DNA of 47,955 nt, the filler included, from Catajapyx aquilonaris (Eukaryota): the NCBI GenBank assembly GCA_000934665.2. It is 2 parts of 2 records of this genome, joined end to end, with 100 filler letters (N's around TTAATTAATTAA, not from the genome) between each part and the next. Parts side by side here need not be neighbours in the genome. Positions count along the whole stretch, not along the records: positions 1 to 23,913 come from KZ539382.1; 1 more part is not named here. One strand, 5' to 3'. Numbering within the stretch: position 1 is the first letter of the stretch; each line of letters opens with the position of its first letter. The notes below the pieces were generated by a model, which saw nothing but the letters and a program-made list of their open reading frames with translations, did not search any database and was not told the DNA's origin. Made by a program: the position numbers and the translations under genes. Of the stretch, positions 1,743-22,397 are shown piece after piece.

Positions 1743-3980
1743 ATGGGCAAGATCTCAGCCGTAACACTGGGAGCCATTCGAGTCCTGCTTAACATTTTGG
1801 CTTGGTTCCTGATCCTGTTGCCTCCAACTCTTGTAATGATTGTTTGGTGGTCAATTAGCAGAACACTAGTGCGAATTAGGTTTGGAAACAGCAGGAAGCC
1901 GTTTAGTGGAGTGCAAACGTTTTTCATGTGTGGAGACGAGACCACCACTGGCTCGATGGCAGCCTTCGCGGTGCTCGCAGGTCCTCACAAGAAGGTGGAC
2001 ATGGAGGAATTTCAGAGAAAGACCATACAGTGCGCCACTGACCATCCGGAACAGCCAGTAGCGTCGTCTTATCCGGAACTGATATACGGTTACTACTACT
2101 GGAGGAAGAAGGAAGACTTCAGGTTCGAGGACCACTGCCATTTGCTGGAAGGACTGGATCCAGAGAAGACCTACACTCAATCGGACGTCATCCAGCTATA
2201 CATGGACAGGGTGCACACCGTACCTTTCCCGAAAAACCGGCCAATGTGGGACGTGTACTATGCTCTGAAGGTGGTGGACAGTGAGTCGGGGAGTGAGCCA
2301 AAGACGATGGTCATAATAAGGAGTCATCACAGCTCAATTGATGGAATATCAGCACTCAAAATCGGGAAAAGGTGAGTTTCATTTTGCTGGTGTATCTGGG
2401 GGGCTTTGGAAGTGACCGCACCAGTGCTGTCGTTTGTTGTGGCCCTGATAGGCACGGTATATCGCATTGCCTGATGATTTTTAGTTGCGAGCGTAGCGAT
2501 TGTGGTTTGTGTTATCTTCCCAGCAATATTGTCCATCTTGTGCCGCCGCAGACCAAAGAAGGTAATCGCGGCTTCGACAATCACTGTACCAGAAACTTGC
2601 GTTTGAAAAAAAGGCACAATTATGTTCGTTGGCCTATACGGTGCACAATGAGGAGCTCATTGTCAGCGGATTCAAAACCCACAATAAACGCCTAGTCGAT
2701 ATCGCTCGCATTGATCTAAAAACCATAGGAACGGTGCCTGGCAGGGCCACAACGAAGGACAGTACTGGTAGGTTAAGGAATAGCCACACAGCAACATCAA
2801 GACAGGTGGTTTTGACCATAGGGTTTGACCCCAACAAGAATGTGTTCTGGTGTGTTTTGTTTCGGTAAATGAGAGTTTTAGGTGTTTGAATATAACATAG
2901 CCTACGCATTAACCTATTAAATTACTTTTTACGAGCCAACACGAGTGCGCACCCACACTCGCGCAGCTCCATTGTGCTGCGCGAACTATGTCGCGCACTC
3001 GGGTGCGCTCTCAGGTCAGCATGAAACGCTAGAGTGCCCTTTACAATTACAGTATCTCATTTCCAGTTATGTAATAGACCAAGAGGTCGAATACAATGTG
3101 GTTCCCAGCTCCAAACCTGCTCCCTTTTGGTGGACTGTCCTCCTCAATGCGGCGGCCATTGTCAACATTCCTTCAGTGATATTCCCTGCAATGATCAGAC
3201 GAGTGTCTAACAACAGTCGGATGCCTTGTCTTAACGGTCGGAAGACACTCTGCACGCTGTCGCTTGACCTGGACATGGTTCGGTTCATCAAGAAGGAAGC
3301 CAAGTGCGCCTTCTCTGATGTCATCCTGGCCTCGTGCGGGGCTTCCTTGCAACACTTCTTCAGCAACCAGGAGTTCTGTCCGAAGCTGATCAGAAGTGGT
3401 CTTCCTCTAGCATTTCCATCGCCAGACGACGAAATCCTCAACAACAACTTCACACTCGTCACTGTTCCTTTCTCCGGAAATAGTCAAGATCCTCTCCAGC
3501 GTCTGAGAGACACCCAGAAGATGACTCGGAGTTTGTCTGGTTCACTGGAAGCCCTTAGTATGTACTGGGCATTGAAGATGATGGCTATTGGGTCCTTCAG
3601 CTGGTGCAATCTCACAGCAAGGTACGGCGACCACTTTGCGACGGTGAGTTACGTCCCTGGAAGAGGACCACGTGTCTCTTACAAAGGAAGGTGGATTGAT
3701 GACCTGCACTTCACCACGATTCATAGGGACAGAACTGGTAAGTACTGCACGCAATATATCCGCAACAATGATTGTAAAATGAAATATGATGCTTACAGGC
3801 ATTGCAATGACTGCCTTCACGTATGTAGACACGTTGAGAATAAACGTGCTGGTGGACGGTGGACTGGTCAAGAACCCGAAGGAGGTGCAGGTCATGGCTG
3901 ATGAGCTGCAGAAGTATGTGGTCAAACTGGCAGACACGTTTGGATACTACGGGGACAAGAAGTCAAGGATGATGGCCTAG
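1743..3980 (+). CDS. WS/DGAT-family O-acyltransferase, copy 1; exons 1743-2371, 3067-3737, 3799-3980 (493 aa)
   Basis: HHSSIDG catalytic motif, RPMWD (PLW-like), FSDV (ND-like), SYVPG (NVPGP-like); N-terminal hydrophobic helix; GT-AG introns (AG|GTGAGT..TTCCAG|, G|GTAAGT..TTACAG|) join the exons into a 1482-nt open frame. Confidence 0.9.
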
Positions 3981-4113
3981 AAAAGGACTCAACATTGCTC
4001 AGATATGTGAGCAAAAGAGCCACAGGTCAGATCTGACAAATATCTGCTGTGTTTCATGCAACAGTCGTGTTTGTAATGCAAATCACCAGTATTACCTCTG
4101 CTATATTTGATAC

Positions 4114-4119
4114 AATAAA
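4114..4119 (+). terminator. Putative polyadenylation signal, copy 1
   Basis: AATAAA ~135 bp after the stop, conserved in all copies (10017-10022, 15951-15956, 22529-22534). Confidence 0.55.
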
Positions 4120-4961
4120 ATTACATTTATCACTGTCAACATTATTAGCTGTCAGTATAATGAAACAGGTTGGGCATGTTGCTTGATGATACATTATTAT
4201 TTTTAATCCACTCTTCGCGGATGTTTTGTCGTGAATTACATGTTTTGTTTACTGCCAAGGTCCAGACACCTCACGAGAGATTTGTGACTTTGAGTAATTC
4301 TTTTACGCGCGATTAGATCGCCTTGAACAAGGTTAGTGAGCTTCATTCCACTCTTGATCATAATTGTGTATACGTAATTGGAATCTCAGTAAATAACCAA
4401 TGAATAAAAAAAGAATAAAAATTGGACAAGTTTGTTTTCACTTTGCTTAATATAATTATACCGTATTTTCCATTGGCTTTCAAACTACTTTTTTACCCTG
4501 ACCTGTAAGCTGTAAGAATCCAATAAAAAACTATTTTGTTTACACACGTTTTGCGTCAGAAATATGGGCCTAACAGAGATTGAACACTTACTAATTAATT
4601 CTATGATAAAAAATCATTGCAAAGCTTGATTTGAAAATTGATGACTCAGGGGATGCTCCAGATGTTCATAAAATAATGAAAATAAAATTGATTGAGACTT
4701 TGTAATATGTTGATTATTCCGCAGAATTTGCTTACTGGTTACAGTTTCAGTATTTTCAGTATTTCAGTGTTTCCTCCCACATTTTCCGGACAAACATCAG
4801 GAAGTAATTTCCGTTTTTCATAGTGAATACTAGTGAACCCGTTGCCAAAATTAGTCAAAAGCTATAATCAGTAAGACAGTGACAATCTAACAACTTTAAT
4901 AATTATGATGGCCTGCCGATTTACCACGTAGTACTATTCTTCGCGCATAGATGGCTCATAC

Positions 4962-19894: not shown

Positions 19895-19905
19895 GGGGTT
19901 TTCCC
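19895..19905 (+). promoter_or_regulatory. kappaB-like site, copy 4
   Basis: GGGGTTTTCCC ~210 bp upstream of ATG 20113. Confidence 0.45.
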
Positions 19906-20112
19906 CGCGAGTTGTTCTGAGATCAAAATAATTAGTGGGTGCTGTTCATAACATTTCTTTAAAAAAATCATGAGTCCTTGAGATGATTTCCCTGGATATT
20001 GTAATTACACTCTCACTGTCTGATTCCCTGCATGTAAATGGAATATGCATGTAAAGGTATGTATACTGGCTGGAAAAGAACCATTTCACAGAGAGCCAGT
20101 GCAGAGATCACG

Positions 20113-22397
20113 ATGGACAAGCTCTCAGCCGTAACACTGGGAGCCATTCGAGTCCTGCTTAACATTTTGGCTTGGTTCCTGATCCTGTTGCCTCCAACTC
20201 TTGTAATGATTGTTTGGTGGGCAATTAGCAGAACACTAGTGCGAATTAGGTTTGGAAACAGCAGGAGGCCGTTTAGCGGAGTGCAAACGTTTTACATGTG
20301 TGAAGACGAGACCACCACTGGCTCGACGGCAGCCTTCGCGATGCTCCCAGGTCCTCACAAGACGGTGGACATGGAGGAATTTCAGAGAATAGCCATCCAG
20401 TGCGCCACGGACCATCCGGAGCTGCCAGTAACGTCCTATCCGGAACTGATATACGGTTACTACTACTGGAGGAAGAAGGAAGACTTCAAGGTCGAGGACC
20501 ACTGCCATTTGCTGGAAGGACTGGATCCAGAGAAGACCTACACTCAATCGGAGGTCATCCAGCTGTACATGGACAGGGTGCACAGCGTACCTTTTCCCAA
20601 GAACAGGCCATTGTGCGACGTGTACTATGCTCTGAAAGTGGTGGGCAATGAGTCGGGGAGTGAGCCAAAGACGATGGTCATAATAAGGAGTCATCACAGC
20701 TCAATTGATGGAATATCAGCACTCAAAATCGGGAAAAGGTGAGTTTCATTTTGCTGGTGTACTATCTGTGGGGCTTTGGAAGTGACCGATCCAGTTTTGT
20801 CCTTTGTTGTGGCCCTGACAGGCAGGGTACATCGCATTGCCCGATAATTTTTAGTAGCGAGCGTATAGCGATTGTGGGTTGTGTTATCCTCTAAACACCG
20901 CAGGCCGAAGAACGGTTATTGGGGCATTGCCAATCACTTGTTCTTGGGAAAGCAACAATATATTATGTTCGTTGGCCCGCGGCGCACAATGAGGGCCTCA
21001 TTGTTAGCGGATTCAAAATGCACAATAAACGTATAGACAACTATCGCTTCGCTAGCATTGACCTAAAAAGTATGCAGGGTGACGAACGGTGCCTGGTAGG
21101 GCCACAACATAGGACAGTACGGGTGCGGTATAAAAAAAAGCCACTAAACAATACCAAGACAAATAGCAACTCTATCCATCGTGAATGGTTTTAATCCAAC
21201 CGGAATGCGGTCTGGTGCCCCCCCCCCCNNNNNNNNNNNNNNNNNNNNNNNNNNNNNATCAATGAGTATTTTCGGATTTTGAGCATAAAACACACCTTAT
21301 TAGACGATTTTTTTAAAAAACTAACGCCACCGAGTGCGCAACCACACTCGCGCAGCTCCATTGTTCCGTGTAAGCTGCGCGAACGATGGTGCGGATTCGG
21401 CTGAGCTCTTAAAAATGCATCTTCAACTATCAGATCAGCATGAAACATGAAGCCAGACTATATAATGGCCTCATTTGCAGTTATGTAATCGACCAAGAGG
21501 TCGAATACAATGTGGTTCCCAGATCCAAACCTGCTCCCTTTTGGTGGACTGTCCTCCTGAATGCGGCGGCCATTGTCAACATCCCTTCAGTGATATTCCC
21601 TGCAATGATCAGACGAGTGTCTAACAACAGTCGGATGCCCCGTCTTAACGGTCGGAAGACACTCTGCACACTGTCGCTGGACCTGGACATGGTTCGGTTC
21701 ATCAAGAAGGAAGCCAAGTGCGCCTTCTCTGATGTCATCCTGGCCTCGTGCGGGGCTTCCTTGCAACACTTCTTCAGCAACCAGGAGTTCTGTCCAAAGC
21801 TGATCAGAAGCGGTCTTCCCCTAGCATTGCCATCTCGAGACGACGAAATCCTCAACAACAACTTCACACTCGTCACTGTTCCTTTCTCCGGAAATAGTCA
21901 AGATCCGCTCCAGCGTCTGAGAGACACCCAGAAGATGACTCGGAGTTTGTCTGGTTCACTGGAAGCCCTTAGTATGTACTGGGCATTGAAGATGATGTCA
22001 GTTGCCACCTTCAGCTGGTGCAATCTCACAGCAAGGTACGGCGACCACTTTGCTCTGCTGAGTTACGTCCCTGGAAGAGGACCACGTGTCTCTTACAAAG
22101 GAAGGTGGGTTGATGACCTGCACTTCACCACGATTCATAGGGACAGAACTGGTAGGTACTGCGCGCAACATATCCGCAACAATGATTTTATAACAATGAA
22201 ATATGCTGCTTACAGGCATTGCAATGACTGCCTTCACGTATGTAGACACGTTGAGAATAACCGTGCTGGTGGACGGTGGACTGGTCAAGAACCCGAAGGA
22301 GGTGCAGGTCATGGCTGATGAGCTTCAGAAGTATGTGGTCAAACTGGCAGACTCGTTTGGATACTACGGAGACAAGAAGTCAAGGATGATGGCCTAG
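20113..22397 (+). CDS. WS/DGAT-family O-acyltransferase, copy 4; exons 20113-20738, 21481-22151, 22216-22397 (492 aa)
   Basis: HHSSIDG motif; conserved splice sites; 1479-nt open frame; RPLCD replaces RPMWD; N gap 21229-21257 lies in intron 1. Confidence 0.88.

What the first reader, a model, noticed from the sequence alone, without database searches (positions are those of the whole stretch)
1743..22397. Four intact, intron-containing WS/DGAT (AtfA/WSD1-type) acyltransferases amplified in tandem in an animal genome
Seen: four three-exon genes with open spliced frames, HHxxxDG and an N-terminal hydrophobic helix, all maintained while the co-duplicated PLC-gamma pieces decayed. Known: the WS/DGAT family (Pfam WES_acyltransf + WS_DGAT_C) is characterised mainly in bacteria, plants and protists, whereas well-studied animal wax/TAG synthases are DGAT1/DGAT2-type. 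Inference: selection keeps a dosage-amplified or diversifying wax-ester or other acyl-transfer pathway (cuticle, storage, secretion or defence lipids), possibly from an old horizontally acquired gene.
Basis: partly seen in the sequence, partly recalled or inferred. Interest (0 to 1): 0.8.

Follow-up and report, generated by a model that had tools for sequence, protein, structure and literature searches.

The report
Tandem wax-synthase-type genes in an arthropod
Four intact, recently duplicated genes for a fat-ester-making enzyme type studied so far mainly in bacteria, plants and protists lie head to tail in an arthropod genome, but they are one young twig of an old, already catalogued invertebrate gene family, and that they make wax esters is likely rather than shown.

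Summary
Four three-exon genes (1743-22397, +) splice to open frames of 492-512 aa with an N-terminal hydrophobic helix and HHxxxDG. Best Pfam hits are PF03007 and PF06974; the best fold matches of an exon-1 model are the bacterial WS/DGATs 7nxg and 6chj. dN/dS is 0.33-0.57, while the three co-duplicated PLC-gamma pieces are broken; they were already truncated before the amplification. The genome holds about 35 relatives. The copies nest among mantis-shrimp and millipede homologues, and a grouping with bacteria-type rows is rejected. Expansions of this family are in print for a springtail (24 genes) and a centipede (14) (PMC4987106, Tables S3/S5). This scan noted similar arrays before, two in this genome and one in another. 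No RNA run was listed, and no functional test of an animal member turned up in the paper searches. One lead: the copies differ most at a segment aligning to alcohol-selectivity residues of a bacterial enzyme, but three other paralogue groups do not repeat this. Verdict: new member of a known kind.

The parts
1743..3980 (+). WS/DGAT copy 1; exons 1743-2371, 3067-3737, 3799-3980; 493 aa; HHSSIDG at 2325-2345
7638..9921 (+). WS/DGAT copy 2; exons 7638-8266, 8952-9622, 9683-9921; 512 aa (1-bp difference near the 3' end gives a 19-aa longer tail); HHSAIDG at 8220-8240
13557..15796 (+). WS/DGAT copy 3; exons 13557-14182, 14882-15552, 15615-15796; 492 aa; HHSSMDG at 14136-14156
20113..22397 (+). WS/DGAT copy 4; exons 20113-20738, 21481-22151, 22216-22397; 492 aa; HHSSIDG at 20692-20712; 29-N gap in intron 1 (21229-21257)
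4973..6275 (-). PLC-gamma 5' piece 1 (pseudogene): exon 1 deleted, frame-breaking insertions in former exons 2, 3, 4
10721..12494 (-). PLC-gamma 5' piece 2 (pseudogene): exon 1 nearly identical to the parent on G000:C537 but with an in-frame TAG at about 11734; frame-breaking indels in former exons 4, 5
16794..18192 (-). PLC-gamma 5' piece 3 (pseudogene): most of exon 1 deleted, frame-breaking indels in former exons 3, 4, 5
18891..19462 (.). 572-bp insertion with 194-bp terminal inverted repeats (95% alike), TA at both ends; MITE-like; explains the longer spacing before copy 4
   Evidence: the label Tc1/mariner-type MITE is recalled, not from a call
3575..3604 (+). most variable 10-residue segment among the copies (copy 1 residues 380-389, approximate limits), aligned by sequence to Ma1 L356-A360
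   Evidence: post hoc, not repeated in three other paralogue groups

Best explanation
The four genes are intact WS/DGAT-family members under purifying selection, made by recent tandem duplication of a ~5.9-kb unit (one gene plus an already truncated piece of a PLC-gamma gene) inside an old, vertically inherited invertebrate family; they likely encode membrane-anchored acyl-CoA:alcohol O-acyltransferases that would make wax esters or similar neutral esters. Shown: gene structure, motif, family and fold match, dN/dS below 1, shared breakpoints of the PLC-gamma piece, mosaic ancestry along the unit, nesting among arthropod homologues. Inferred: the N-terminal helix anchors the enzyme in the ER; the second His of HHxxxDG deprotonates the acceptor alcohol, which attacks the acyl-CoA thioester (family knowledge); fatty alcohols come from the genome's fatty acyl-CoA reductases; the array turns over by unequal crossing-over and gene conversion; the product serves surface or gland lipids.
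For: Open spliced frames in 4 of 4. PF03007 is the only Pfam hit at E<=1 for exon 1 in 4 of 4 (over the curated cut-off in 1 of 4, the domain being cut by the intron) and PF06974 the only hit for exon 2 in 4 of 4, all over cut-off. Exon 2 hits 7nxg at E 4.3e-7; a profile of alignment A1 hits 6chj and 7nxg at E 2e-42 against 0.019 for the next, an NRPS domain. Exon-1 model pLDDT 89.6 with one long N-terminal helix; Foldseek ranks 7nxg and 6chj first. dN/dS 0.33-0.57, 6 of 6 pairs below 1 with Fisher p<0.05; dS 0.07-0.10 is about the raw difference between former PLC-gamma exons of the pieces, 0.085-0.107. Intron 1 is phase 2 in 20 of 20 and intron 2 phase 1 in 18 of 20 paralogue models elsewhere in the genome. 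Informative sites group copies 1+3 in intron 1 (32 of 36) but 1+4 in the 3' flank (14 of 19). Tree: the 18-row expansion clade (100/100) sits in a 98/91 clade with Oratosquilla, Chamberlinius and more conserved paralogues of the same genome. 15 PF03015 matches of 15 scored in the genome. Arthropod host: 66 PF00379 matches of 70 scored. Plant members with transmembrane domains showed little or no DGAT activity (PMC9113324).
Against: No activity or expression data. The clade is far diverged: best identity to any public protein 23-33% over part of exon 2, and C-terminal SNVPG reads SYVPG, so the substrate may have changed. NRPS condensation domains follow closely in the fold search and some have a higher TM-score (0.50-0.52 against 0.46-0.47). 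dN/dS up to 0.57 is weak constraint; copy 3 is the least constrained. The genome also has DGAT2-family genes (19 exon matches on two contigs), which could make wax esters instead. The paralogue splice models were chosen by score against copy 1, so the phase agreement is partly built in.
Confidence: 0.62

Rival explanations
1. The copies are acyltransferases that have left wax-ester synthesis and acylate other acceptors (short or aromatic alcohols, terpenols, sterols, defensive or pheromone compounds), and the array is diversifying in acceptor choice.
For: Long branch to the clade and another to the window group. 7 of 10 positions at alignment columns 381-390 vary among four copies (permutation p 0.02 for window size 10, one of four sizes tried); the segment aligns without gaps to Ma1 L356-A360, positions reported to shift alcohol selectivity (PMC9113324). 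Other paralogues alter the first His of the motif (SH or NH in 11 of 20 three-exon models).
Against: The segment was picked after looking; it ranks 304, 220 and 296 of 455 windows in three other paralogue groups. The differences come from a few multi-base changes. The pairwise alignment to 6chj is weak (E 0.11), and the window group is one residue shorter here than most paralogues, so the register may be off by one. No region-wide dN/dS above 1 except exon 3 of copy 3 on 1 synonymous and 4-5 non-synonymous changes.
Confidence: 0.22
2. The enzymes are mainly DGATs making storage triacylglycerol, amplified for dosage.
For: Bacterial members are often bifunctional (PMC9113324); public animal homologues are auto-named diacylglycerol O-acyltransferases.
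Against: Those names are transferred from mycobacterial proteins; the genome has DGAT2-family genes; membrane-anchored plant members have little DGAT activity.
Confidence: 0.1
3. The amplification is nearly neutral birth-and-death: only one or two copies are needed and the rest are too young to have decayed.
For: dN/dS 0.33-0.57; copies about 92% identical; a paralogue on C132 has 2 stops; further near-identical copies sit on three short contigs that may be extra copies or alleles.
Against: In the same unit and at similar substitution distance each PLC-gamma piece gathered its own frame-breaking lesions and intron 1 gathered 7-16 frame-breaking indels per pair, against none in exons 1-2. Gene conversion between exons could mask decay, so this is not excluded.
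Confidence: 0.2
4. The gene was acquired horizontally from a bacterium in this arthropod lineage and then gained introns.
For: Bacterial proteins are among the best hits of exon 2; several older paralogues have long uninterrupted frames of 463-531 codons.
Against: Top hit is a mantis-shrimp protein; the clade nests among animal homologues; holding the 18 expansion rows with 15 bacteria-type rows costs 73 log-likelihood units, p-AU 0.0006; N-terminal hydrophobic helix shared with named animal homologues, absent in the named bacterial ones.
Confidence: 0.03

Closest known systems
Bacterial WS/DGAT: Acinetobacter baylyi AtfA/AbWSD1 (PDB 7nxg) and Marinobacter aquaeolei Ma1 (PDB 6chj)
   Same: PF03007 + PF06974 order, HHxxxDG, fold of the N-terminal lobe, size 490-510 aa
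   Different: N-terminal hydrophobic helix, two introns, 13-17% identity in the structural alignment, SYVPG for SNVPG; activity untested
Plant WSD-type wax synthases (Arabidopsis WSD1, petunia PhWS1, Klebsormidium KnWSD1; PMC12062176, PMC9113324)
   Same: same two domains, predicted transmembrane segment, multigene family
   Different: no plant sequence was in my trees; position of the transmembrane segment in plants was not compared here
Arthropod WSD1-type O-acyltransferase cluster orthomcl285 (Orchesella cincta 24, Strigamia maritima 14, Aedes aegypti 2, Tribolium castaneum 1; PMC4987106 Tables S3, S5)
   Same: same InterPro WSD1 domains, lineage-specific expansion in an arthropod; best database hits in Nematostella, Capitella, Strigamia
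   Different: I could not fetch those proteins, so orthology to this clade is untested; that paper gives one phrase in the main text and no function test in the passages I saw
Annotated invertebrate homologues XP_076058769.1 and XP_076030027.1 (Oratosquilla), GAB6021237.1 (Chamberlinius), CAH1794769.1 (Owenia), XP_071942650.1 (Antedon)
   Same: N-terminal hydrophobic helix, both Pfam domains in the four scanned, same animal branch of the tree
   Different: only 26-32% identity over part of exon 2

Membership tests
WS/DGAT (AtfA/WSD1 type) | PF03007 catalytic domain N-terminal | tested here: met
   only Pfam hit at E<=1 for exon 1 in 4 of 4 (E 1.7e-5 to 8.5e-3); over curated cut-off in 1 of 4, exon scanned alone
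WS/DGAT (AtfA/WSD1 type) | PF06974 C-terminal domain | tested here: met
   exon 2 over cut-off in 4 of 4; exon 3 of copy 1 continues the profile at 106-133
WS/DGAT (AtfA/WSD1 type) | HHxxxDG motif at the conserved place | tested here: met
   4 of 4; H196, D200, G201 nearly invariant in a 54-row alignment
WS/DGAT (AtfA/WSD1 type) | fold closest to solved WS/DGATs | tested here: met
   exon-1 model only: 7nxg and 6chj rank 1-3 by E-value, NRPS C domains next; whole spliced protein not folded
WS/DGAT (AtfA/WSD1 type) | acyl-CoA:fatty alcohol or DAG acyltransferase activity | not testable with these tools
   needs expression and assay
NRPS condensation domain (PF00668) | best profile match and NRPS module context | tested here: not met
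   no PF00668 hit at E<=1 for 9 window exons; profile E 0.019 against 2e-42 for WS/DGAT
Alcohol acetyltransferase (PF07247) | best profile match | tested here: not met
   no hit for 9 window exons; E 0.056 in one distant paralogue
DGAT1/MBOAT or DGAT2/AWAT wax synthases | PF03062 or PF03982 match | tested here: not met
   no such hit; the genome's PF03982 matches lie on C11 and C8270
lineage-specific horizontal transfer from bacteria | nesting among bacterial homologues | tested here: not met
   sampling limited to 53 rows, group named after the tree was seen
expressed gene | spliced transcripts | not testable with these tools
   no RNA run listed

The most novel reading that the evidence does not exclude
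Arthropods run a third, bacterial-type route to wax and other neutral esters that has not been characterised, and this young array is caught diversifying its acceptor pocket: the four copies differ most at the segment matching Ma1 L356-A360, so they would make different esters for cuticle, gland or defence use and offer four near-identical natural variants for mapping specificity.
Probability: 0.2. Interest if true: 0.65.

Novelty: new member of a known kind. Interest (0 to 1): 0.33.

Why it matters
Reviews sort wax synthases into bacterial-type WS/DGAT (bacteria, plants, protists), jojoba-type, and vertebrate DGAT2-type (PMC9113324 section 10). Invertebrates carry many WS/DGAT genes, and no functional test of one turned up in my searches, so the enzymes behind arthropod wax esters may partly lie here. 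Four copies at 92% identity are a convenient set for a first assay. The array itself is ordinary tandem duplication of a family whose expansion in arthropods is already tabulated.

Tried and rejected
Expression: no RNA holder was listed for window 1700-4150, so no reads were laid. Word-indexed homologue searches with exon 2 (longer proteins, 1137 candidates) and with a paralogue frame (4377 candidates) found nothing at E<=0.001; the alignment search gave 14 proteins, one of them a named animal protein already in the query. A single-sequence fold of an intronless paralogue failed (pLDDT 39) and was not used. The first tree held one row read in the wrong frame and was a quick tree; it was redone with that row corrected and 23 of 76 rows left out (young paralogues, two long rows, redundant unnamed rows). 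Paper searches with the term 'WS DGAT' are uninformative: the term scores 0 in a paper that writes WS/DGAT throughout. Three papers were not held. The idea of a hypervariable pocket across the family failed in 3 of 3 other paralogue groups. Physical adjacency of the array to the parent PLC-gamma on C537 was considered because C537:1-540 matches window 22954-23517 (92%); not accepted, since that stretch looks like a dispersed repeat (part recurs at 31189-31347). 47 of 51 open frames of 85 aa or more right of 24014 were scanned together: no Pfam hit over cut-off. An odorant-binding-protein search gave one weak match and did not settle the class of arthropod.
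Full report
Observation. A self-comparison of the window shows a unit of about 5.9 kb repeated four times between about 900 and 22900 at 83-93% identity. Each unit holds a three-exon gene on +. All four have HHxxxDG at residue 194-195 and a hydrophobic stretch peaking at residue 16-17. Copy 2 differs by one base in its last five codons and has a 19-aa longer tail, after the conserved domain. Positions 1-23913 carry the same coordinates on contig C3316 of G000; 24014 onward is C3317.

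Family. Scanned exon by exon, exon 1 matches only PF03007 (4 of 4; over the curated cut-off in 1 of 4) and exon 2 only PF06974 (4 of 4, all over cut-off) at E<=1. Exon 2 alone finds Acinetobacter WSD 7nxg at E 4.3e-7; a profile of window exons, paralogues and homologues finds 6chj and 7nxg at E 2e-42 and an NRPS domain only at 0.019. An AlphaFold2 model of exon 1 on a 54-row alignment (pLDDT 89.6, helix 6-47) has 7nxg and 6chj as its three best Foldseek rows, followed by NRPS condensation domains, some with slightly higher TM-scores. The whole spliced protein was not folded.

Selection. Over the first 490 codons the copies are 91-93% identical; dS is 0.07-0.10, dN 0.033-0.043, dN/dS 0.33-0.57, below 1 in 6 of 6 pairs with Fisher p from 1.8e-5 to 0.038 (pairs are not independent). 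Frame-breaking indels number 7-16 per pair in intron 1 and 4-11 in the 3' flank, 0 in exons 1 and 2. Informative sites favour 1+3 in intron 1 (32 of 36), 1+4 in the 3' flank (14 of 19) and 1+2 in exon 1 (5 of 8), so the units are mosaics, as unequal crossing-over or gene conversion would give (mechanism inferred). Conversion between exons could lower apparent decay.

PLC-gamma pieces. Three pieces lie on - between the genes. They derive from the first five exons and upstream region of a PLC-gamma gene on G000:C537 (81-95% identity), whose first five exons splice to an open frame. All three share one internal deletion that removes the start of exon 3 and one 3' breakpoint in exon 5: the piece was dead before amplification. 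Each then gained its own lesions: exon 1 lost wholly or mostly in pieces 1 and 3, an in-frame TAG in piece 2, and several frame-breaking indels in each. Their former exons differ by 8.5-10.7%, close to the dS of the acyltransferases, so they serve as a neutral control.

Genome context. The host is an arthropod (66 cuticle-protein PF00379 matches of 70 scored); the class is not settled. Exon 2 finds 37 matches of 38 candidates and exon 1 finds 35 of 38 in G000, the window's four included; counts are lower bounds. Many lie in other tandem runs (C132, C3002, C104, C125, C4101). Of 20 three-exon paralogue models, 20 have intron 1 in phase 2, 18 have intron 2 in phase 1 and 19 lack internal stops; junctions were picked by score against copy 1. 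Three short contigs (C8337, C7946, C7729) hold further copies at 90-94% identity to copy 1 that may be extra copies or alleles. The genome has 15 fatty acyl-CoA reductase C-domain matches of 15 scored and DGAT2-family genes on two contigs, so WS/DGAT does not replace the DGAT2 type.

Relatives and origin. Among 1.84 billion representatives, exon 2 finds 64 proteins at E<=0.001, none below 1e-10, 23-33% identical. For an intronless paralogue the ESM Atlas lists arthropod-dominated WS/DGAT clusters of 131-159 members as the best three; for exon 2 alone it lists short fragments, one without taxa and two bacterial. In the careful tree (53 rows, LG+G4; 23 of 76 rows left out) the window copies lie in an 18-row clade of this genome (100/100) within a 98/91 clade with Oratosquilla, Chamberlinius, three more conserved paralogues and two unnamed rows; the wider animal grouping with Owenia and Antedon is weaker (81/87, 94/62). 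Holding the 18 rows with 15 bacteria-type rows (3 named, 12 unnamed and so classed by tree position) is rejected, p-AU 0.0006; the group was named after the tree was seen and no plant, fungal or cnidarian rows were available. A transfer in this lineage is unlikely; an ancient one is untested.

Literature. PMC4987106 (passages and supplement Tables S3, S5 seen; supplement file 1 not searchable, file 2 cut when stored) lists cluster orthomcl285 with WSD1 domains: Orchesella 24, Strigamia 14, Aedes 2, Tribolium 1, none in seven other species, best hits in Nematostella, Capitella and Strigamia; the main text names O-acyltransferases among the ten largest expanded families. PMC9113324 (section 10 and passages) lists characterised WS/DGATs from bacteria, plants and protists, none from animals, and says that Ma1 positions 356, 360 and 405 shift alcohol selectivity. 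PMC12062176, PMC3185287 and PMC10351704 were seen as passages. Searches listed no paper whose title or abstract start reports a test of an animal WS/DGAT; I saw listings only, the library lacks most subscription papers, and searches could not match the term.

Mechanism. Most likely each gene gives an ER-anchored enzyme in which the motif histidine activates a fatty alcohol to take the acyl chain of acyl-CoA, giving wax esters for surface or gland lipids. The catalytic scheme is family knowledge; localisation, substrate and tissue are inferred. One lead bears on diversification: 7 of 10 positions at copy-1 residues 380-389 vary among the four copies (permutation p 0.02 for this window size, 0.03-0.30 for three others), and the segment aligns without gaps to Ma1 L356-A360 between two anchors (E 0.11). 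Against it, the segment was chosen after looking, rests on a few multi-base changes, may be off by one residue, and ranks 304, 220 and 296 of 455 windows in three other paralogue groups.

Verdict. Real, intact and under selection; a new member of a known, widely distributed but apparently untested invertebrate family; found before by this scan on other DNA. Interest 0.33.

Noticed in passing
G000:C537 (L024 1131-8761), C456 (L026-L027), C519 (L028-L029): Three colinear, apparently full-length PLC-gamma-like genes in one arthropod genome; C456 and C519 exons match C537 frames at 30-79% identity. Most arthropods have one (recalled).
   Followed up: partly
window 11281-12494 (-): PLC-gamma piece 2 is 94.8% identical to the parent over exon 1-2 and the upstream region (exon 1 differs at 1 of 217 bases, which makes a stop), much closer than pieces 1 and 3; suggests recent conversion from the parent gene.
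   Followed up: partly
G000:C132, C3002, C4101 paralogues: 11 paralogues replace the first His of HHxxxDG by Ser or Asn and several others end the motif in DA; possible functional shift in neighbouring clades.
   Followed up: no
G000:C4184, C5839, C5758, C4248: A sister clade of paralogues with long uninterrupted frames (463-531 codons) lacking intron 1, some lacking both introns; intron gain or loss within the family.
   Followed up: partly
window 18891-19462 and 24925-25066: MITE-like element with 194-bp terminal inverted repeats and TA ends; a partial second copy at 24925.
   Followed up: partly
window 22878-23565: Dispersed repeat right after copy 4, 92% identical to C537:1-540; ends resemble Helitron-type elements (label recalled).
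   Followed up: no
window 27197-27580 (+): Short frame with a faint reverse transcriptase match (PF00078 E 0.08), probably a LINE remnant.
   Followed up: no
window 3968-4034 and counterparts: The frame that gives copy 2 its longer tail stays partly open downstream of the stop in copy 1, so the longer tail may be the older state.
   Followed up: no
G000:C11 193846-206166: Tandem run of about four DGAT2-family genes; fatty acyl-CoA reductase matches also cluster on C363, C1897 and C2860.
   Followed up: no
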